DNA from: Ignavibacteriota bacterium
GTDB taxonomy: Bacteria; Bacteroidota; Ignavibacteria; Palsa-1295
NCBI GenBank assembly: GCA_963787835.1
Contig: CAWBEI010000002.1
Coordinates: 32,001-96,000 of the forward strand
Direction: 5' to 3'
DNA: 64,000 bases
In this document: positions 1,185 through 12,172 of the stretch, piece by piece
Layout: the number at the start of each line of letters is the position of its first letter
Numbering within the stretch: the stretch's first letter is position 1
Program-made: the position numbers and the translations under genes
The notes under the pieces: generated by a model
What the model was told of the DNA's origin: nothing
What the model saw: only the letters and a program-made list of their open reading frames with translations
The model's database searches: none

Positions 1185-3203
1185 ATGGTTCATCAATTCA
1201 AACTCTCGTCAGGGATCATTGCTGCGTTCCTATTTAGTATTTTCTCGGTTGTAGCAGTTAGTAGCACGCAGGCACAGATCTCGAAGCCAGTCATTGAATA
1301 TAATTTCCCAATGGATGGCTCGAAGTATGTTCCAGGCAATACTCCGATCATTTTCCGGCCCTCCGTTCCTGTAAGTATTCTTGGTGCCGCAAAAAATCTT
1401 GTGGTGACCGGTACCCTGACAGGCCGGCACCAAGGATGTATGGTCCTTTCTGATGATAATAGAACCATCATCTTTACACCCACCGATCCATTTGAAAGCG
1501 GGGATCATGTGACTGTAACATTGGGAACGGGAATCCAGACGACCATTGGATCGGAGCTTAGTCCAATATCTTTTTCATTTGATGTTCAGGATAACGAACC
1601 AGTCGAGCAAAGTCCTTTTTTGAGTGATCCTTTACCTCCAGCCAAACCACAACATGCTTTCCAAACGGACTCGACATTGCCCGCCGATTTCCCTGTTCTG
1701 CCGGATAGCATTAATAACAATCCTTCACCGGGCTATCTATTCCTTTCAACGTTCAAATATATTGCACTCTCGCAGGATACAGGGACTTCCGGAGCTTATC
1801 GGATGGTACTGGATAAGAATGGCAGCCCCGTCTATTATCAACATGCGGCTGACTCGATCGATTTTGATTTTCAGCCGCAGCCAAACGGCCTTATGACCTA
1901 TTTCGAGCTGCCAAGAAATAAATGGTTTGCGATGGATTCTACTTACAAGATCGTGGATAGTTTCTGGACCCAACCGCCTTATACCACCGACCTTCACGAC
2001 CTGGAATTGCTAACGCATGGCCATGCACTGATGCTCTCTTACTATCCGATCAAGCCATACAACCTGGCGCCTTATGGCGGGAGCGACACAGCAACCTTTA
2101 TTGGCTGCGTTATCGAGGAAACCGACTCCCTAAAACAGCCGGTCTGGATCTGGCGCTCCTGGGATCCCGGCCATTTCCTCGACACCGACGCCACCGAGGA
2201 TCCTATCACGGAGAAGCCCTACAATGGTGTTCAAGCCAATTCCATCCAGGTCGATACAGATGGAAATATCCTGCTTTCCTCGCGTGAACTGGATGAAGCA
2301 ACAAAGATCAGCCGTAAGGATGGACATCTTATCTGGCGTCTGGGTGGGAAGCATAACCAGTTTACATTCATTAATGACACTATTCGCTTCTCACACCAAA
2401 ATGCTGTGCGCCGGATTGCGAATGGGCATATCACGCTCTTCGACAACGGGAATTTTAACCATATCGCCATATCCTACGACACCATATCATTCCCGGCCGA
2501 TACCCAGATCATCGTAAGCCCTCCGGACACGATCATTACCCCGGCTTATACCCAAATAGATACAAATATCAACCCGGCCTTCGCGCGCGCCTGCGAATAC
2601 AATGTCGATACGGCTACAATGACAGCAACGCTCGTATGGCATTACGATCATGATTCAACGATCGCAAGCCAGGCAATGGGGTATGTGCAGCGGCTTCCGG
2701 ATGGGAACACCCTCATTAGCTGGGGAATGTATAATGGAGCCGGGGGCGCTTTCGCTCATCCCGCCGTCACGGAGGTAACCCCTGACAAAAAGAAGACTTT
2801 CGAAATGTACGTCATCGACCCCACGGCGATCTATCGCGCATTTAAATTCCCTTCGCCGAATTACGACACAGGTTTTGTGGCTGGGGCTTCACCATATATA
2901 CTGTTGAACGATGGAGTTGTTGCGGAAAACTCGATATCGAACGCGCCATTCCTCGGCTCACCCTATCCCAATCCATCCAATGGAAGCTCGATGGTTGGCA
3001 TCAGCGCAACCCTTTCGGATCGGCTGGAACTCAGCCTGTACGATCCGTTGGGCCGCTTGGTACGTAACTATTTTTCCGGCTTTGTTACTTCTCCTTCGTT
3101 CTCGCTTGAATTACTTACCAACGATCTCCCCAATGGCGCCTACGACCTTGTGCTTCGTGGCGATGGCGGCACTGTAAACCGCCAGCTCGTCATTTTGCGA
3201 TAA
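1185..3203 (+). CDS. Arylsulfotransferase (ASST)-family protein with N-terminal Ig-like domain and T9SS C-terminal domain; catalytic His residues substituted
   Basis: Signal peptide; DLHD, SSR, IWRLGG, LFDNG motifs; PYPNP...YDPLGR CTD; HxN reads QAN and QH reads QN. Confidence 0.8.
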   Translation: MVHQFKLSSGIIAAFLFSIFSVVAVSSTQAQISKPVIEYNFPMDGSKYVPGNTPIIFRPSVPVSILGAAKNLVVTGTLTGRHQGCMVLSDDNRTIIFTPTDPFESGDHVTVTLGTGIQTTIGSELSPISFSFDVQDNEPVEQSPFLSDPLPPAKPQHAFQTDSTLPADFPVLPDSINNNPSPGYLFLSTFKYIALSQDTGTSGAYRMVLDKNGSPVYYQHAADSIDFDFQPQPNGLMTYFELPRNKWFAMDSTYKIVDSFWTQPPYTTDLHDLELLTHGHALMLSYYPIKPYNLAPYGGSDTATFIGCVIEETDSLKQPVWIWRSWDPGHFLDTDATEDPITEKPYNGVQANSIQVDTDGNILLSSRELDEATKISRKDGHLIWRLGGKHNQFTFINDTIRFSHQNAVRRIANGHITLFDNGNFNHIAISYDTISFPADTQIIVSPPDTIITPAYTQIDTNINPAFARACEYNVDTATMTATLVWHYDHDSTIASQAMGYVQRLPDGNTLISWGMYNGAGGAFAHPAVTEVTPDKKKTFEMYVIDPTAIYRAFKFPSPNYDTGFVAGASPYILLNDGVVAENSISNAPFLGSPYPNPSNGSSMVGISATLSDRLELSLYDPLGRLVRNYFSGFVTSPSFSLELLTNDLPNGAYDLVLRGDGGTVNRQLVILR

Positions 3204-3249
3204 TTCGTAGCCACCACTCTTGAACGGTTATATCATTGATTCATTGCTT

Positions 3250-5211
3250 ATGCTTCCTTTTTACAAATCTTATCGATTGCTGGTTTTCTTCCTTTTGATC
3301 CTGACTTCACCGATCTATACCAATGGCTCATTCGCACAATCTCGTGTATCTATTGAGTACCATTTCCCGATGGATGGGTCTAAGTATGTGCCGCCTGACT
3401 CCAAGATCATCATTCGGCCATCCGGAACCGTTGATGCTGGAAGCGCGACAGCCTCATCGATCATCGTTACAGGTTCGAGCTCCGGTGTGCATCCTGTCAC
3501 GGCGTTGGTATCCGATGACCATCGCACCATTATCTTTAGCCCGAGTTCTCCATTCGACTTAGGCGAAATGGTGAATGTTCAGTTGCAGAACAGCCTGAGA
3601 TTGACGGACGGGTCTTCCCTACCTCCAATCTCATTTTCGTTTGAAGTCTCTCCTACGGAGCCAGACTCGACCGATGAAGAAATTCCGTTCAATGCTCATC
3701 CGGGAAATTTAAGCCTTGATGCGCCTCTTTCCCTTCCCGCCGATTTCCCCAAAATAGAAGTGGTCGCAAAGAACGATCCAGCTCCGGGTGATATTTTTCT
3801 TACGACCTATAATTTCTTTAGCGGCGGAAGTTTGGGGGCCTATCGAATGATCCTTGATTCACTGGCAAATCCGGTCTATTATGCCAAACCGTCTCGTTTT
3901 CTTGACTGGGACTTTAAACTTCTGCCCAATAAACAATTCGCGTTCTGTCAAGGAGGCTACAGTTCCAATTACCTGATGGCTACCGGTTCCAAATACTACA
4001 TCATGGATTCCAATTATGTCGTTCGCGACAGTTTTGACTCCTACACTGCAAATACACCCTACACAACAGATTTTCACGACCTCGAACTGCTCCCGAACGG
4101 TCACGCGTTGATGCTCGGGCTTGCTCCTTTACCCGGTATCAATATGAGTAAATATGTGAAAAATGGAAAAACAAACGCAACTGTTATGGGAGCGGTCATT
4201 GAAGAGCTCGACTTAACAAAAACTCCCATCTGGATCTGGAGAACATGGGATCCCGGACATTTCCTCGACACCGACGCGACGAACGATAACTTTTTAGAAG
4301 ATACTGTGGATGCCGTTCATGCCAACGCCATCCAGGTCGATACCGATGGCAACGTCCTTCTTTCCTCTCGAAGTATGGACGAGATCACCAAGATCAATCG
4401 ATTCGACACTGGGTCGATCATCTGGAGATTTGGCGGCAAACACAATCAATTCACCTTCATCAATGACTCGATGCACTTCTCGCATCAACATGCTATTCGG
4501 CGCATCGCCAATGGGCATCTGACGCTTTACGATAATGGGAACTATGGACATATCGTAACACGGAACGACACCACGATCGACAGCTCGGTCTCACCACCGG
4601 ACACGAGCATTTCCCCTTTCCAGACGCCATTTGCCCGCGCGTGCGAATATGACCTAAATGTTGAGAATGAGACCGCTACGCTGGTCTGGCATTATGACCA
4701 CGATTCGGGCGTTGCGAGTCAGGCGATGGGATATGTTCAACGATTGGATAATGGGAACACGTTAATTAACTGGGGCTTGAATTTCAATGGCTCTGCCCTT
4801 GTCGATCAGCCAGCCGTGACCGAGGTTCGCCCCAACGGAACTATTGTCTATGAACTGCACGTCGACATTCCGTATCTTGTCTATCGGGCGGAAAAATTCG
4901 TTCTGCCTGCCTCCTCGAGCGCTGTGAATTCGACGACTCTGACTAATACCAGCCTCGTGCTCGGCGAGCCATTTCCGAACCCGGCCAATGGCAGTTCTCG
5001 CGTTGTGGTGAGCGCACCGGCTTCCGAGCAAGTTGCGCTTGAACTCTATGATCCCATTGGCCGCAAGGTCCGCGAATATTTTGCGGGACCGCTCGGAATG
5101 CCTATCAGCGCCCTCGAACTCGAAACTGGAGATCTGCCGAATGGCGCATACACGCTCGTTCTCCGTGGCGAGGACGCAACTGTTAGCCGGCAATTGGTCA
5201 TCCTGCGATAG
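3250..5211 (+). CDS. Arylsulfotransferase (ASST)-family protein with Ig-like and T9SS C-terminal domains
   Basis: Paralogue of the previous gene; intact DFHD, HANAI, SSR, HQH, YDNG motifs; PFPNP CTD; ATG at 3250 preferred over TTG at 3220. Confidence 0.82.
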   Translation: MLPFYKSYRLLVFFLLILTSPIYTNGSFAQSRVSIEYHFPMDGSKYVPPDSKIIIRPSGTVDAGSATASSIIVTGSSSGVHPVTALVSDDHRTIIFSPSSPFDLGEMVNVQLQNSLRLTDGSSLPPISFSFEVSPTEPDSTDEEIPFNAHPGNLSLDAPLSLPADFPKIEVVAKNDPAPGDIFLTTYNFFSGGSLGAYRMILDSLANPVYYAKPSRFLDWDFKLLPNKQFAFCQGGYSSNYLMATGSKYYIMDSNYVVRDSFDSYTANTPYTTDFHDLELLPNGHALMLGLAPLPGINMSKYVKNGKTNATVMGAVIEELDLTKTPIWIWRTWDPGHFLDTDATNDNFLEDTVDAVHANAIQVDTDGNVLLSSRSMDEITKINRFDTGSIIWRFGGKHNQFTFINDSMHFSHQHAIRRIANGHLTLYDNGNYGHIVTRNDTTIDSSVSPPDTSISPFQTPFARACEYDLNVENETATLVWHYDHDSGVASQAMGYVQRLDNGNTLINWGLNFNGSALVDQPAVTEVRPNGTIVYELHVDIPYLVYRAEKFVLPASSSAVNSTTLTNTSLVLGEPFPNPANGSSRVVVSAPASEQVALELYDPIGRKVREYFAGPLGMPISALELETGDLPNGAYTLVLRGEDATVSRQLVILR

Positions 5212-5264: not shown

Positions 5265-5282
5265 TGCGTTTAGTCCGTGGAC

Positions 5283-5309
5283 GGTCGCAAACTAAAGTTT
5301 GCGCTACAT
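5283..5309. repeat. GTAG-type REP unit, identical to 50398-50424
   Basis: GGTCGCAAACTAAAGTTTGCGCTACAT occurs at both sites. Confidence 0.8.
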
Positions 5310-5336
5310 ATCATTATTCATATTTTCCCCCACTCC

Positions 5337-7775
5337 GTGGATCTATTTCAAAAATGTTACGACTTCACCCGCGCCGATGAAGTAAAAGAAGCTGGATATT
5401 ATCCCTATTTCAGAGCCATTGAAGAGAACGAAGGCCCGGTCGTCCAGATCGAAGGCCGCAAGGTCATTATGGCCGGCTCCAATAATTATCTCGGGCTGAC
5501 GGCCGATCCGCGCGTCAAGGAAGCGGCCATCAAAGCCATCGAGCGCTATGGGACGGGTTGCTCTGGTTCGCGTTACCTCACTGGGACGGTCCGTTTGCAC
5601 GAAGAACTCGAGCATGAGATGGCTGATTATTTCCAAAAAGAGGCATGCCTGCTATTCTCGACCGGATACCAGACTGCCCAAGGGGTTATCCCGACGCTCT
5701 GCCAGCGAGGCGAGTATGTTATCAGCGATAAAGACAACCATGCGTGCATCGTTGCTGGAAACCTGATGGCGAGAGGCATGTATGGCGAAGTGGTTCGGTA
5801 CAATCACAATGATATGGGTGATCTTGAACGCCGCATTTCCAAGCTCCCGGTCGATGCACCGAAGCTCATCGTAAGCGATGGCGTTTTTTCGACCTCCGGT
5901 GAAATTGTTGACTTGCCACGCATGGTCGAGCTTGCAAAAATGTACAATGCCCGGATCATGGTTGATGACGCACATGCGGTCGGCGTCATCGGTGAAGGCG
6001 GACGCGGCACGGCAAGCTATTTCAATCTCGTCAAAGAGACGGACATGACGATGGGAACATTTTCTAAGACGTTCGCAAGTCTTGGCGGTTTCGTCGTTGG
6101 CGAGGAGCGCGTCATCAACTACATCAAGCACCAGGCTTCCGCACTGATCTTTTCCGCCAGTCCGACACCAGCCTCCGTTGCTGCGGCGCTGATGTCACTC
6201 AAAATTCTTCGCGAAGAACCGGAGCGCATCCAGCATTTGATCGACAATGCCGATTACATGCGCCGCGAGTTCAAGGCGATGGGGTTCAAGGTTATCGAGT
6301 CAAAAACAGGGATCGTTCCTGTTATTGTTGGCGATGACATCAAGACGCTCGTCTTCTGGCGAAAGCTCTTCGATGCCGGTGTGTTCGTGAATGCGTTCGT
6401 TGTGCCGGGCGTGATGCAGGGTATGCAGATGATGCGTACCAGCTTCATGGCAACCCATGAAAAGCATCATCTGGACAGGATCTTAGAACTTTTTAAAGAA
6501 ATTGGAGAAGAATTGGGCGTTTTAGACGAGGACGAGGCACCGGAGTCTAAAATCTCCACTACGTCCAAACCGTCAGCTCCGTCCACAACGACAGTTCACA
6601 TTCGCAAAGTGGAGAACCGCAAGGACAAACTCCGTTTCGTCCGGCTTCCATGGAATCTTTATGAAAATGAAAAGAATTGGGTTCCACCACTCGAAATGGA
6701 TCGCATGCGGCTTATCGACGAAGTCAAAAATCCATTTTACAAGCATGCGACCCATCAACTGTTTCTGGCTGAAGATAATAGCGGCAAGGTCATCGGTCGA
6801 ATAGCGGCTATTATCAATCACCGGCATAACGAACTCTATGCCGCAGAGCAAGGCATGACGGGCTTTGTGGGATTTTTCGATTGTATTGACGATCAATCGG
6901 TAGCCAATGCCCTCTTTTTAGCGGCTGAGGATTTCCTCCGGTCGCACGGGATGAAGCATGTACGCGGGCCGGTCAGTCCATCCATTAATGATGAGGTTGG
7001 TTTGCTTGTGGAAGGATTCCAATACCCTCCTGCCGTGATGATGCCGTATCATCCTGCCTATTACAAAAAGCTTTGGGAAAATGCGGGGTATGGAAAAGTG
7101 CAAGATCTCCTTGCATGGCGTATCACAGAGACGAAATCGCTCTCGCCGAAGATCGAGCGCGTGACGAATATCTTGCGCGAGCGATCGAAGGTAAAGATCC
7201 GCTCGCTCGATATGAAAAAATACGATGCGGAGGTGAATCTGATTCGTGACCTCTATTCACGCGGATGGGAAGAGAATTGGGGAGCCGTTCCGCTGGACAA
7301 CGGAGAGATCACGATGCTGGCCGATGAACTGCGGCAGATCATCGATCCTGATTTTGTCCTGTTCGCGGAAGCCCCCGATGCAAATGGCAAAATGCAGACC
7401 ATCGGATTTTCGCTGTGCATTCCGGACATCAATCAGGCATTCCTTGCCGGAAAGCCGATCCCGAAGGGTGCGATGAATCTGCCTACGGCCATCTCAAATC
7501 TCATGACAAAAAAGAAAGCGATCGATAATCTCCGAATTGTATTGCTTGGCGTGATGCCCGAATATCGCGGGCGTGCTGTCGATGCGTTGCTCTATCGCGA
7601 GATCATGGAACGGGCCAAGAAAAAGGGAATCAAATTTGGCGAAGCATCGTGGGTTCTGGAAGATAACATGATGATGTCCCGCGCGGCCGAAGTGATGAAC
7701 GGCGAGCCCTACAAACGGTATCGCGTGTTCGAGAAACCGCTCTATCAGGGCGATGAGCGGGTCGGGCCAGTGTAA
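5337..7775 (+). CDS. Fusion: serine palmitoyltransferase-like alpha-oxoamine synthase plus bCerS-like GNAT N-acyltransferase
   Basis: N-half: [33 protein letters not shown] (PLP Lys). After an S/T/P-rich linker: [54 protein letters not shown] at 5337 is the likely start because the 5277 extension runs through a REP. Confidence 0.8.
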
Positions 7776-7782
7776 GGAACGG

Positions 7783-9138
7783 TTACCGAGAGATCACAAG
7801 CTTTTGCGTGGCTGTCGTGCCATCGGCTGTGAGTCGAACGAAATACGTTCCAGGCTCGAATGCGAGAGGATCGAGCGTCAGTACATTCTCACCGGGCAGT
7901 GCCGGACCATTCTGAAAAACGCGAATGGTTCGGCCTAATTCGTCCAGTATCGACACCTGCACGGGACCAGCAGTGCTCATCGTGTAGGTGATCTTTACTA
8001 CCGAGCCAGAAGCAGGGTTCCCAATTACTGTGAGGTCAAACCCAGCATTGACGTTCGGTAGTGTAACCAATGAAGGAGCAAAATCCGAAAGCTTCCGGAC
8101 CCATACTCCATTGGCATAAGTGCCGACTACCAGATTCGGGCCTGACGTATCCATGGAAATAATGTAACCGGCATCACCGTTAGAGGGTGGAAACCCGTCA
8201 TTGTTTGGAGCCCAGTTCACGCCATTATCGGATGAAACATAGACGCTGCTATCGGCCGCAACAAATAAATTTTGACCGTTCGATACAAAGCCAAGCACGT
8301 TATTCCAATTTTGAGCTTGATCATTTGCTTTAATCCAGCTTTGTCCTTCGTTTGTCGTGTAATAAACTTCTGAATGGATCAGGTCGGTATCAGGGATAAT
8401 AGCAAAAAGAGTTGACCCCTTGATCGCAAATTTAGCAACCGTCGTTCCATCGAAATAGCTCGTTGGTAACCCACTATCGATGGGAGACCATGATCCCCCT
8501 TCATTGGTCGAACGATAGGCGCCACCATCCCTTGTTCCAGCAAAAAAATTGGAGCCGGAAACTAGAAGCGAAACTACAGATGCAGGGCTGAAATCTCCAT
8601 CCGGCACTTCGCCGATGGTATCGGGCATCCAGTCAGCTCCCGGCCCAACTTGCTGAAACACACCTGAACCCGTGGCAGCGAAGATTGTGTCGCCGATCGT
8701 CGTCAACACCCCTATACTAAAACGTGATAGAATCGGGTTGGGAAAGTCGTTAATATTCATCTCCCACGTATGCCCAGCATCCGTACTGAAGTAAGATCCT
8801 CCAGAAGAATTAGAACCGACAACTAAATCCGTTCCCGCTGCAGCCATGGATGTAATAACCAAGGGCACCGTGTCGCCAAGAACAAAACTCCAGCTCTTGC
8901 CATGGTCGGTAGAGGTGAAAATCGAATCTGGTTCTTGGGAGCCTACCCCTGCAATCATGTTGTTCCCAAAGACTGCAAGACTCCCAATGAATGAATTCCC
9001 GATCCCGCTGGCCTGCGTCCATTGTTGTGCGCCGGCTGTGGGGAGAAAGATAACCAAACAAATCGCGCATAATACGATAACAAGCGATCCGCCTTCTTTC
9101 AGAAAAAGCAATATTGAGACAATAGAATTGTGTCTCAT
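7783..9138 (-). CDS. Secreted Asp-box (BNR) beta-propeller protein with T9SS C-terminal domain
   Basis: Repeated S-x-D/N-x-G-x-S/T-W motifs; signal peptide; DELGR...PGTYFVRL CTD. Confidence 0.75.
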   Translation of the reverse strand: MRHNSIVSILLFLKEGGSLVIVLCAICLVIFLPTAGAQQWTQASGIGNSFIGSLAVFGNNMIAGVGSQEPDSIFTSTDHGKSWSFVLGDTVPLVITSMAAAGTDLVVGSNSSGGSYFSTDAGHTWEMNINDFPNPILSRFSIGVLTTIGDTIFAATGSGVFQQVGPGADWMPDTIGEVPDGDFSPASVVSLLVSGSNFFAGTRDGGAYRSTNEGGSWSPIDSGLPTSYFDGTTVAKFAIKGSTLFAIIPDTDLIHSEVYYTTNEGQSWIKANDQAQNWNNVLGFVSNGQNLFVAADSSVYVSSDNGVNWAPNNDGFPPSNGDAGYIISMDTSGPNLVVGTYANGVWVRKLSDFAPSLVTLPNVNAGFDLTVIGNPASGSVVKITYTMSTAGPVQVSILDELGRTIRVFQNGPALPGENVLTLDPLAFEPGTYFVRLTADGTTATQKLVISR

Positions 9139-9260
9139 TCCCACATTTTTAGATTAATGACATATACCCCGACCCTCGTTCTCTGACCCCACAAAGAACG
9201 AACGGTCAGCTTCTGCTTAATTGAAACGAGGAAGAACCACAATGATTCCGAATCGCGAAA

Positions 9261-10679
9261 TTACCGGGTGATCACCAACTTCTCCGTAACTGACTCGCCA
9301 TTCGACGAAAGGCGGACGAAATACGAACCGGGAGCGAAGCTGAGCGGATCGAGCGTCAGTACGTTCTGACCCGACAACGCCATACCATTCTGAAGGACGC
9401 GAACGGTTCGGCCTAATTCATCCATCACCGACACCTGCGTGGGACCGGCATCGCTCATAGTATAGGTGATCGTTACTCCCGAACCGGAAGCCGGGTTCCC
9501 TGATATAGCAAGTTTCAGCCCGGCATCCGATCCCGCTATTGGAGTCACAGCAGAAAGCCCAAGATCCGATAGCTTCCGGATCCATACACCATTTTCAAAC
9601 GTACTGACCATCACATATCCGCCAGAGACCTGCACAGCATTCACATAAGGTCCGTTAGCGGTTGGAAGTCCGGCATTCCACTGCGTCCATGTTGTGCCGC
9701 TATTAGTGGACACATAGAAACCGCTGTCGGTAGCAGCGAATAGGTTCTGACCGAATGCTGCAAGCTGGGGGGTAACATTGGACCAGGTTTGCGGAGTAGA
9801 ATTCTTCAGCGTCCAACTCTGGCCGTTATTCGTGGTGAGATAGCAATCGTACGTGTTGTCCGTACTGTCATGAGCGAACAATGCATAAAGCGAGGAGCCC
9901 GAATTTGCGAACGCCCAAGCAGGCGCCCAGCCGTTGTTACTGTCTAAATACGATAAACCCGAATTTGCTGAGGACCACGATGCACCATTATTCGTCGAGA
10001 CATACATGCCGAAACCAGCAGATGCAGCGATCAAATTATTTCCGGATGACACTAATTTATTGACCCCAATCGGATAAACTACCCCTTGATAGGAGATCGT
10101 CATTCCAACGGTATCTGGTGTCCATGGTGCTCCGGGTGCCGTTTGTTGAAAAATGCCCGATCCGCCGCACGACATATAGATCTTCCCGTTGAACGAAATC
10201 AATGCCGCAGCAAACGCATTCGTATCCGGCCATCCTGTTGTATCGGCAAACCATGTTTGGCCCTGATCTCTGGAATAGCAGAGCACGGTTTTATTCCCGG
10301 TTGCCGGTGATAGGTTCGCAGAGCCGATCAGCGCATATCCGGCATTCGTTTGGAATGCGACAAGCGGAACACCGCCATTCGGAGCAAAGCTTGACCAGGT
10401 TTGGCCGTTATCCGATGAAAGGAAAAGAGAATCCGACGTAGCGCCCGTCTGATTGCTTGCGCATCTCGCATCGGCAAGAAGATTGTTCCCATACACCAGG
10501 AAACCTGCGACGTCATCGACATTATTATTCCCCAGCGAATTACTGAATCCTGTCACCTGCTTCCATTGTGCAAACGCGGCATGATTCGAGATGATCAGTA
10601 CAATGGCAAACGCTGCGAAACGAATTGCAACTCGTTTCGAGCGAGGGAAGAACGGAGACACCGTAAAAGTATTATTCAT
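9261..10679 (-). CDS. Secreted Asp-box beta-propeller protein with T9SS C-terminal domain
   Basis: SSDNGQTW, STNNGASW, TTNNGQSW repeats; paralogue of both neighbours. Confidence 0.75.
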   Translation of the reverse strand: MNNTFTVSPFFPRSKRVAIRFAAFAIVLIISNHAAFAQWKQVTGFSNSLGNNNVDDVAGFLVYGNNLLADARCASNQTGATSDSLFLSSDNGQTWSSFAPNGGVPLVAFQTNAGYALIGSANLSPATGNKTVLCYSRDQGQTWFADTTGWPDTNAFAAALISFNGKIYMSCGGSGIFQQTAPGAPWTPDTVGMTISYQGVVYPIGVNKLVSSGNNLIAASAGFGMYVSTNNGASWSSANSGLSYLDSNNGWAPAWAFANSGSSLYALFAHDSTDNTYDCYLTTNNGQSWTLKNSTPQTWSNVTPQLAAFGQNLFAATDSGFYVSTNSGTTWTQWNAGLPTANGPYVNAVQVSGGYVMVSTFENGVWIRKLSDLGLSAVTPIAGSDAGLKLAISGNPASGSGVTITYTMSDAGPTQVSVMDELGRTVRVLQNGMALSGQNVLTLDPLSFAPGSYFVRLSSNGESVTEKLVITR

Positions 10680-10719
10680 GAATATGGATTTGGTTAGTTG
10701 AGCAATTCTATTCTGGAAA

Positions 10720-12172
10720 TTATCTCGCGATCACGAGCTTTTGCATGGTGGCAGCGCCATCGGCGGTCAGGCGTACGAAGTACGTTCCGGGATCGAGCGT
10801 GCGGGAATCGAGCGTGACCATATTTTCCCCCGGCAACGATGTACCATTCTGGAACATTCGCACGCTTCGGCCCAATTCGTCCATCACGAGGATCTGTGCA
10901 TCACTGGCATCGGGAAGAGTATAGGTAACCTTTACTTCGGAACTCGAAGCAGGGTTTTGGGACAATGAAAGGCTCAGGCCATCCGCACGTGTTGGATTCG
11001 CGGACACGGATGAAATCCCAAAGGAGGAAAGGGATCGATACCACGCACCAGACGAATTGGTACCGATCACAATATTTCCACCGGAAACTATAACGGAATT
11101 TGGATAATCTCCCGGCGTAAATGCAAGACCTTGATCCTCCTGCGTCCATGTCGAACCGTTGTTGGATGAATAATAAAAACCGCTATCTGTAACGGCAAAT
11201 AAATTTTGATTGTATGCGGCAAGGCTATACAGCAATCCCCAATTTAAAATCAGATGAATTCTGCTTACTCCAATTCTGACCGTTATTTGTTGTAAGATAA
11301 ATATCGACGGTATCGAAGTCGGATCCACCAAATTGATCGGTGTCATGAGCGATCACTGCATATACGGACGAGCCATAAACAGCGAATTGATCCGCCTCAT
11401 ACCAATTATTGAATCCCGAGGAGGTGAAGGATGGCAATCCACTATTTTCAGACGTCCAGAGCATCCCCTGGTTCGTAGATACAAAGATTCCATCACCACT
11501 CCCCTCCAGCGTGGAAAGAAATAAATTATTTCCGGATGCTGCTAACCAACCGATCTCTGAGAAAAACGGGAATGTGTATCCCATCCCACTCGAATCCAGC
11601 GTCCAGATCCCGCCGGGGGTTGTTTGGCTAAAAACACCATACGAGTTCGACGCATAGGCTGTGTTTCCGATCTTAGCAAGCGAAAGGGCTTGGCCATTGG
11701 TACCTGTGAGGTTCCATCCCGTCGTATCGATCGCCCATGTCTGTCCATAATCTGTGGAAAAAGAGAGCACTGCGTCGGAAATATTATTGTCGGCAGGAGA
11801 GGGCTGTGCCTCTCCGATGAAATCATTTCCAACCACCACCAATGGCCGTTGCCCGTAGGGAGCAAAATCCGTCCATGTTTGCCCGTGATCCGTAGAAAGA
11901 AAGAGTGAATCGGGCGTCGCGCCAGGGTTGTTTAGCAGATCGTCGGCGCAAAACGCCGAGGCCAGCAGTGAATCGCCCCAAAGCGTGAAGCCGGCGACCT
12001 GATCGACGTTATCAGGCAAACTGGCATTGACATTCGAAAAACCTGTAGCCTGTTTCCATTGCGCGAAAGACACCTCTTCGAATGCAAACAGCAACGAGTA
12101 ACAGACGGCAATAGCAAAGGCCGCGCGAAACGAGATCGAACTCATGGACGAATGGAACGTAAGTTTTTTCAT
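10720..12172 (-). pseudogene. Third Asp-box/T9SS paralogue split by a 1-nt frameshift (pseudogene or sequencing error)
   Basis: ORF 11225..12172 has the signal peptide and Asp-boxes. ORF 10720..11346 has the last blade and the CTD. Removing one base near 11243-11249 joins them collinearly with 9261..10679. Confidence 0.75.

What the first reader, a model, noticed from the sequence alone, without database searches (positions are those of the whole stretch)
1185..5211. Tandem T9SS arylsulfotransferases, one an apparent pseudo-enzyme
Seen: copy 2 has intact HD, HAN, SSR and HQH motifs. Copy 1 has Gln (CAA, 2232-2234) and Asn (AAT, 2400-2402) at the HxN and QH histidines, yet keeps its full length, signal peptide and CTD. 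Known: in E. coli PAPS-independent ASST, the QH histidine is the sulfurylated nucleophile and the HxN histidine is also catalytic. Inference: two separate hits at catalytic residues suggest conversion to a non-catalytic binder of sulfated ligands, or a regulatory partner, rather than decay.
Basis: partly seen in the sequence, partly recalled or inferred. Interest (0 to 1): 0.7.

Follow-up and report, generated by a model that had tools for sequence, protein, structure and literature searches.

The report
Disarmed sulfotransferase kept beside active copy
A soil bacterium carries, next to a normal-looking sulfate-transferring enzyme gene, an old duplicate that has lost the two histidines needed for the reaction yet shows signs of still being kept intact by selection, so it likely now binds sulfated molecules instead of modifying them.

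Summary
Observation confirmed. Copy 1 (1185-3203) has Gln and Asn at the equivalents of E. coli ASST His356 (acid/base) and His436 (sulfo-carrier), plus a third change, D347N; copy 2 is intact. Short-read contigs match both codons, and one JGI protein 93% identical has the same residues. No other homologue shares them: His in 252 of 252 and 255 of 256 aligned sequences. So this is a lineage-restricted loss, not a widespread pseudo-enzyme subfamily. It does not look like simple decay. Only 4 of 78 highly conserved columns changed, three in the two His motifs. The sulfate-holding His, Asn and Arg remain. Differences between the two His-less proteins avoid conserved columns (1 versus 7.2 expected, p about 0.002; propeller alone p 0.026 at best). 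The tandem pair is an old duplication (about 51% identical). His-to-Asn is the laboratory change in E. coli structure 4P05, which holds intact substrate. Best reading: a catalytically dead, likely T9SS-exported binder of sulfate esters (0.5). Rivals: early decay (0.22), partner of copy 2 (0.15), altered chemistry (0.1). Function is untested.

The parts
1185..3203 (+). Copy 1: 672-aa ASST-family protein lacking two catalytic histidines (likely signal peptide, Ig-like domain, beta-propeller, T9SS-type C-terminal domain)
1284..1580 (+). Copy 1 Big_5 Ig-like domain (aa 34-132); holds 18 of the 46 differences to P0121 (counted over aa 32-135)
1995..1997 (+). H271 (CAC), kept; equivalent of E. coli His252
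2220..2234 (+). Remodelled motif Y346-N347-G348-V349-Q350 (closest His-bearing relatives: F-D-A-x-H); Q350 (CAA, 2232-2234) replaces the equivalent of E. coli His356
2238..2240 (+). N352 (AAT), kept; equivalent of E. coli Asn358
2283..2285 (+). R367 (CGT), kept; equivalent of E. coli Arg374
2400..2402 (+). N406 (AAT) in place of the sulfo-carrier histidine (E. coli His436)
2964..3194 (+). Copy 1 T9SS type A sorting domain (aa 594-670)
   Evidence: above the TIGR04183 cut-off, below the Pfam cut-off
3250..5211 (+). Copy 2: 653-aa ASST-family protein with all three histidines (H276, H357 at 4318-4320, H414 at 4489-4491); predicted active; separate old clade

Best explanation
Copy 1 is an arylsulfate sulfotransferase paralogue that has lost both reaction histidines but kept its sulfate-holding residues, and it likely survives as a non-catalytic, probably T9SS-exported protein that binds a sulfate ester without transferring it. 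Shown: the substitutions, their absence from other homologues, the intact frame and domains, and differences between the two known His-less proteins that avoid conserved columns. Inferred from characterised ASSTs: without the carrier His no covalent sulfo-enzyme can form, so ping-pong transfer is off. Inferred: an old duplication left two ASST lineages at this locus; in this lineage copy 2 (and three more His-intact paralogues elsewhere in the genome) kept the chemistry, which freed copy 1 to lose the nucleophile and the acid/base and to remodel residues 346-350 at the pocket. Untested: the ligand, and whether binding serves capture for the neighbouring enzyme, adhesion or sequestration.
For: (1) The lost residues are the chemistry pair: His436 is the sulfated residue in E. 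coli ASST (PMC13426309), its equivalent H401Q abolishes activity in the Salmonella enzyme (bioRxiv 10.64898/2026.10.08.757629), and the HxN histidine is modelled as acid/base (bioRxiv 10.64898/2026.10.08.757636). (2) The other sulfate contacts named for those enzymes are kept: H271, N352, R367. (3) Of 78 columns at least 90% conserved in 176 homologues, copy 1 differs at 4 (E107D, D347N, H350Q, H406N) and P0121 at 3; the chance that 2 or more of 3 (or of 4) hits fall on the five E. coli-mapped residues is 0.010 (0.019). Of 9 changes shared by both proteins at columns invariant in the sister clade, 4 lie within residues 346-350 (permutation p 1e-4, a window chosen after seeing the data). (4) The 46 differences between P0001 and P0121 arose after the His loss and avoid conserved columns: 1 observed against 8.7 expected at 80% conservation or more (p 0.001); 1 against 7.2 when stratified by domain (p 0.002) and 1 against 7.6 by 40-residue window (p 0.0008). 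4 of 46 need two base changes (neutral simulation p 0.009). (5) No rate speed-up in the propeller: about 0.22 changes per column from the clade root against about 0.25-0.47 for His-bearing sisters, with the five motif columns left out. (6) PDB 4P05 is titled as the E. coli H436N mutant with 4-nitrophenyl sulfate in the active site. (7) The predicted fold is intact (mean pLDDT 84.7); the best structural matches are Cpz4 (9KF4, 9KF6) and E. coli ASST. (8) SprA and PorU are present in the genome.
Against: Only two records carry the change, and no DNA was obtained for P0121, so there is no dN/dS. Within the propeller alone the signal is modest: p 0.026 at the 80% threshold, 0.12-0.30 at the other three thresholds, and none against sister-clade invariant columns (4 observed, 4.6 expected). 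A neutral simulation without indels leaves the frame free of stops in 16% of runs. The differences are uneven (10 of 46 in residues 107-126), and neighbours on a contig of the same length range from 99.4% to 88.3% identity, so recombination may shape the comparison. Constraint could reflect the cost of misfolding rather than a function. D347 is replaced in several distant His-bearing proteins (127 of 141 keep Asp), so it need not be catalytic. Each of the three motif changes is a single base change. Nothing here shows expression or binding, and GldM was not found with TIGR03517 (control also silent).
Confidence: 0.5

Rival explanations
1. Copy 1 is a redundant paralogue in early decay. Catalytic residues went first because copy 2 covers the activity, and the remaining constraint only reflects selection against a misfolded secreted protein or too little time.
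For: The change is confined to 2 records. Relatives hold 1 or 2 ASST genes at this site, so copies come and go. Broken or single-hit copies occur in the genus and family: a stop in the first gene of G006, His-to-Arg at the carrier site in a G009 tandem copy, and Arg for the first His in a G025 fragment. The propeller-only signal is weak. P(no stop) under neutrality is 0.16.
Against: Hits are focused on the two His motifs with no loss at structural Gly, Trp or Pro columns; the depletion at conserved columns holds after stratifying; there is no rate acceleration; the two His-less proteins are 7% apart with both frames whole, while a neighbouring kinase on a same-length contig differs by 0.6%.
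Confidence: 0.22
2. Copy 1 acts through protein contact, as an allosteric, scaffolding or chaperone partner of copy 2 or of another exported protein, and its pocket no longer matters.
For: The genes are adjacent on one strand, 46 bases apart, with no terminator-like site between them. E. coli ASST is a homodimer. An unrelated protein, P0302, fuses a His-less ASST domain in front of an intact one. Such roles are listed for pseudoenzymes (PMC10211241).
Against: The Desulfitobacterium and Salmonella ASSTs are monomers. Copy-2-type genes stand alone at this locus in G009, G010 and G011, so they need no such partner there. Pocket residues H271, N352, R367, Q405, Y550 and R551 are all kept. No close relative of copy 2 was found for the organism of P0121.
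Confidence: 0.15
3. Copy 1 is still an enzyme with changed chemistry, for example using the new Tyr346 or the remaining His271 as nucleophile or base for direct transfer or hydrolysis.
For: Tyr at 346 occurs in only 1 of 250 other aligned homologues. The changes cluster at 346-350. Older work proposed a tyrosine nucleophile for some ASSTs, and migrated catalytic residues are known in apparent pseudoenzymes.
Against: The carrier His is described as conserved across characterised ASSTs and its replacement abolishes activity.
Confidence: 0.1
4. The Gln and Asn codons are sequencing or assembly errors.
For: Each is one base from a His codon, and the genome appears to be a metagenome assembly.
Against: Short-read contigs match with 0 differences, and a protein 7% different from another source has the same residues.
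Confidence: 0.01

Closest known systems
E. coli CFT073 ASST/AssT (PDB 3ELQ, 3ETS, 3ETT) and its H436N mutant (4P04, 4P05)
   Same: Beta-propeller ASST fold; motif order His252, His356-x-Asn358, Arg374, Gln-His436. Copy 1 naturally has Asn at the His436 position, as in the mutant whose PDB title lists intact substrate in the site.
   Different: 13% identity in the structural alignment. Copy 1 also lacks the His356 equivalent and has a Big_5 domain and a T9SS-type tail; the E. coli mutant is a laboratory construct.
Streptomyces Cpz4 sulfotransferase (PDB 9KF4, 9KF6)
   Same: Closest solved structure by sequence (E 1e-24 for copy 2; 1e-59 for the family profile) and by fold; same D-x-x-H-x-N and QH motifs as copy 2.
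   Different: Cpz4 keeps all histidines and works in caprazamycin synthesis; no such cluster lies near this locus (neighbours: winged-helix regulator, membrane protein, serine palmitoyltransferase-like fusion).
Salmonella St_ASST_5 and Desulfitobacterium Dh_ASST_6 (bioRxiv 10.64898/2026.10.08.757629 and .757636)
   Same: Three-histidine site; give the mutagenesis and mechanism used here to call copy 1 inactive.
   Different: Both are active. [quoted passage not shown]
Substrate-trapping pseudoenzymes such as the pseudophosphatase STYX (review PMC10211241)
   Same: Loss of the nucleophile with a retained fold, and ligand binding as the proposed role.
   Different: Other folds and mostly eukaryotic signalling; binding is shown there and only inferred here.

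Membership tests
PAPS-independent arylsulfate sulfotransferase fold family (PF05935/PF14269) | ASST beta-propeller domain | tested here: met
   Both copies pass both Pfam cut-offs; Foldseek top ten are Cpz4 and E. coli ASST
Active ASST (EC 2.8.2.22) | Sulfo-carrier His (E. coli His436) | tested here: not met
   Copy 1 has N406; copy 2 has H414
Active ASST (EC 2.8.2.22) | HxN histidine (E. coli His356) | tested here: not met
   Copy 1 has Q350; copy 2 has H357
Active ASST (EC 2.8.2.22) | Sulfate-coordinating His252, Asn358 and Arg374 equivalents | tested here: met
   H271, N352, R367 in copy 1; all present in copy 2. The Thr501 equivalent was not mapped.
Active ASST (EC 2.8.2.22) | Ping-pong sulfo transfer from an aryl sulfate | not testable with these tools
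   Needs an assay, for both copies
Pseudoenzyme | Enzyme fold with catalytic residues missing | tested here: met
Pseudoenzyme | Kept under purifying selection after the loss | tested here: inconclusive
   Protein-level tests favour it (p about 0.001-0.002 for the whole protein; 0.026 at best for the propeller alone); one pair only, no dN/dS
Pseudoenzyme | A demonstrated non-catalytic function | not testable with these tools
   No binding, interaction or expression data
T9SS cargo | Type A C-terminal sorting domain | tested here: met
   TIGR04183 above cut-off in both copies; Pfam PF18962 below cut-off
T9SS cargo | T9SS machinery in the genome | tested here: inconclusive
   SprA and PorU pass their cut-offs; GldM not found with TIGR03517 and the control was silent; other components not searched
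T9SS cargo | Sec signal peptide | tested here: inconclusive
   Hydrophobic N-terminal helix 9-28 ending near A30-Q31; no predictor run

The most novel reading that the evidence does not exclude
Copy 1 is a natural substrate-trap form of ASST: the first sulfate-ester-binding protein derived from this enzyme family, with nucleophile and acid/base removed and the pocket lip rebuilt, displayed by T9SS on a soil Kapabacteria-lineage cell. It would hold the physiological sulfated ligand of this large, uncharacterised T9SS ASST subfamily and could be used to fish it out.
Probability: 0.35. Interest if true: 0.62.

Novelty: new variant of a known kind. Interest (0 to 1): 0.42.

Why it matters
Natural donors and acceptors of most bacterial ASSTs are unknown (stated in bioRxiv 10.64898/2026.10.08.757629). 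A naturally disarmed copy that keeps the sulfate pocket, next to a His-intact paralogue of the same subfamily, is a ready pair for asking what these exported enzymes handle in soil, and it catches a pseudoenzyme soon after its birth. The limits are that it is known from two records, no function is shown, and pseudoenzymes are a known kind of thing. Seven full-text searches listed no paper on a natural inactive ASST or on T9SS-tailed ASSTs; most subscription papers are outside that library.

Tried and rejected
Sequencing error: rejected. Recent tandem duplication: rejected; pS is about 0.79 between the copies and the AU test gives p 5e-6. A widespread His-less subfamily: not found. A scan of the GTDB genomes for FS[H/Y]Q-x-(12)-[F/Y]DNGN with a codon not starting with C at the carrier site gave 7 stretches, 0 of 7 ASSTs; the pattern fits 108 of 176 His-bearing homologues, misses Gln, Arg, Pro and Leu, and the window's own genome may be left out. 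A search of short proteins gave 21 hits, none with the Q/N motifs. The metagenome scan returned 1 locus, a His-bearing relative at 62%, and not the DNA of P0121. dN/dS against other species is useless because synonymous sites are saturated. No RNA holder was listed. Complex prediction for copy 1 with copy 2 was not available, so nothing was folded. The promoter and terminator scan was within chance (10 found against 5.8 +/- 2.4; 1 against 4.9). The original E. coli structure paper was not held and a search for 'H436N' found 0 papers, so the mutant is cited from PDB titles only. Earlier scan notes: nothing relevant. Rows left out of the 176-sequence count: fragments under 430 aa from loci (among them a G025 fragment with Arg at the first His) and duplicates.
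Full report
Observation. The window holds two intact same-strand ORFs, copy 1 at 1185-3203 (672 aa) and copy 2 at 3250-5211 (653 aa), 52% identical. Each has an N-terminal hydrophobic helix, a Big_5 domain, an ASST domain and a C-terminal T9SS-type domain. Copy 1 reads Y-N-G-V-Q-A-N at 346-352 and F-S-H-Q-N at 402-406, with CAA at 2232-2234 and AAT at 2400-2402; copy 2 has His at both places. A profile of 78 homologues aligns H271, Q350, N352, R367 and N406 with His252, His356, Asn358, Arg374 and His436 of E. coli ASST (the first stretches score weakly alone, but motif order and spacing agree). The AlphaFold model (mean pLDDT 84.7, pTM 0.77) matches Cpz4 and E. coli ASST best.

It is not an error. 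Contigs from short-read runs lie on the region with no differences; one spans both codons and one the first. These 4 runs are one study and may include the source sample, so the stronger control is P0121, a JGI protein identical at 626 of 672 residues that carries the same Y346, N347, G348, Q350 and N406.

How rare it is. Among 256 other aligned homologues, position 350 is His in 252 of 252 with a residue, position 406 in 255 of 256 (one Arg, in a four-gene tandem of G009), and position 347 is Asp in 247 of 250. Among 137 more distant cluster representatives (141 domains), His is kept in 139 and 140 of 141, and Asp347 in 127 of 141. These sets were picked by likeness and are kin, so the counts describe rather than test. 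All 12 closest clusters (58-68% identity) keep both His. A motif scan of the GTDB genomes found no further ASST with a non-His carrier codon, within the pattern's limits. The His-less form is therefore known from two records.

History. The locus between a winged-helix regulator gene and a serine palmitoyltransferase-like fusion gene is syntenic in G002, G006, G014, G009 and G010 and in metagenome locus L062, and on the regulator side in G011 and G013; it holds one or two ASST genes. The tree splits them into a copy-2 clade and a second clade of 16 that contains copy 1 and P0121 as a pair (100/100) on a stem of 0.26 with tips of 0.038 and 0.039. The data reject copies 1 and 2 as one clade (AU p 5e-6), and synonymous sites between them are saturated. 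Of the genomes seen, only G000 holds one gene from each clade at this site, and it has three more His-intact paralogues elsewhere. Redundancy freeing copy 1 is an inference from this. A protein of the same-genus genome G013 is named Candidatus Kapabacteria by NCBI, and the runs are soil metagenomes.

Decay or retention. (a) At 78 columns that are at least 90% conserved, copy 1 differs at four and P0121 at three: D347N, H350Q and H406N. Two of these are the chemistry histidines; the chance of two or more hits among the five E. coli-mapped residues is 0.010-0.019. Of nine shared changes at columns invariant in the sister clade, four lie in 346-350 (p 1e-4, window chosen after the fact). (b) The 46 differences between the two His-less proteins postdate the loss. 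Twelve lie in 378 propeller residues and 34 in the other 294 (Fisher p 2e-5). They avoid conserved columns: 1 against 8.7 expected overall, 1 against 7.2 stratified by domain (p 0.002), 1 against 7.6 by 40-residue window (p 0.0008). In the propeller alone the test gives p 0.026 at the 80% threshold, 0.12-0.30 at the others, and nothing against sister-invariant columns. (c) A neutral simulation to 46 amino-acid differences leaves no stop in 16% of 3000 runs (indels not modelled) and gives four or more two-base changes in 0.9%. (d) The lineage is not faster than its His-bearing sisters in the propeller. (e) Proteins on a JGI contig of the same length (5977 bases, taken to be the same contig) are 99.4% and 88.3% identical to the window's neighbours, so the organism is close but mosaic, and recombination may account for the cluster of differences at 107-126. 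On balance, constraint after the loss is likely, but it rests on one pair without DNA.

Mechanism. In characterised ASSTs the donor's sulfo group moves to the QH histidine and then to an acceptor (PMC13426309, passages; PMC12809581, one passage). Replacing that His with Gln abolishes activity in the Salmonella enzyme (bioRxiv .757629, passages and section 27). The HxN histidine is modelled as proton donor and acceptor (bioRxiv .757636, abstract, part of the introduction and passages). Copy 1 lacks both, so I put canonical activity at under 10%. It keeps H271, N352 and R367, the other named sulfate contacts, and Q405, D420, N421, Y550 and R551. PDB titles show an E. coli H436N mutant with intact 4-nitrophenyl sulfate in the site (4P05; the paper itself was not read). 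In the Salmonella enzyme a loop 6-16 residues before the HxN His is proposed to recognise natural substrates; by spacing alone, copy 1's changes at 341-348 lie in or next to that loop. The simplest reading is a non-catalytic binder of a sulfate ester with a reshaped pocket lip. Export by T9SS is inferred from the tail and from SprA and PorU in the genome; GldM was not found. The ligand is unknown.

Rivals. Early decay (0.22) fits the narrow distribution and the broken or single-hit copies seen in relatives. Altered chemistry (0.1) rests on the new Tyr346 (1 of 250 other homologues).

Known or new. Copy 2 is an ordinary new member of the ASST family, of a T9SS-tailed subfamily with at least 1012 matches in one search. 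Copy 1 has the family fold but fails two defining features of an active ASST. Pseudoenzymes are a known kind (PMC10211241, abstract and passages). One preprint notes very few His-less ASST sequences in its clade 2 without assigning a role in the passages read; its supplements and the cited phylogeny were not seen. Seven literature searches (listings only) showed no report of a natural inactive ASST. Verdict: a real, lineage-restricted ASST pseudoenzyme, likely retained, function untested; new variant of a known kind; interest 0.42.

Noticed in passing
P0302 (1308 aa): Two ASST domains in one T9SS-tailed protein: the first lacks all three histidines, the second is intact; an independent dead-plus-intact arrangement.
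   Followed up: partly
L046:7423-9222 (G009); L022:3324-4241 (G025); P0089; P0319: Single catalytic-His losses in other family members: carrier His to Arg in a four-gene tandem, first His to Arg or Pro, HxN His to Trp. Not checked for error or selection.
   Followed up: no
G000 whole genome: Five ASST genes but no match to the formylglycine sulfatase family PF00884 (genome 98% complete; the family rang in 10 of 14 controls). These exported ASSTs might handle sulfate esters in place of sulfatases; untested.
   Followed up: no
G000:C2:1710208-1712079: A third ASST paralogue lies about 200 bases downstream of the T9SS translocon gene sprA on the same strand.
   Followed up: no
window 5277-7775: Serine palmitoyltransferase-like PLP domain (below the NF047600 cut-off) fused to a C-terminal GNAT-like region; 83-93% identical and syntenic in five relatives.
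   Followed up: no
window 7783-12172, minus strand: Run of BNR/Asp-box propeller proteins with T9SS tails; one appears split into ORFs 11225-12172 and 10720-11346. The array varies in number among relatives.
   Followed up: no
L032:7851-9887 (G006); L061 (G006): The first ASST gene at the syntenic locus of G006 is interrupted by a stop, and another G006 paralogue is in pieces; decay or assembly error.
   Followed up: no
genus and family genomes: T9SS-tailed ASST genes are expanded in this lineage, 0-8 matches per genome in the genus (13 of 15 genomes with a match), often in tandem arrays, with varied residues around the HxN motif.
   Followed up: partly
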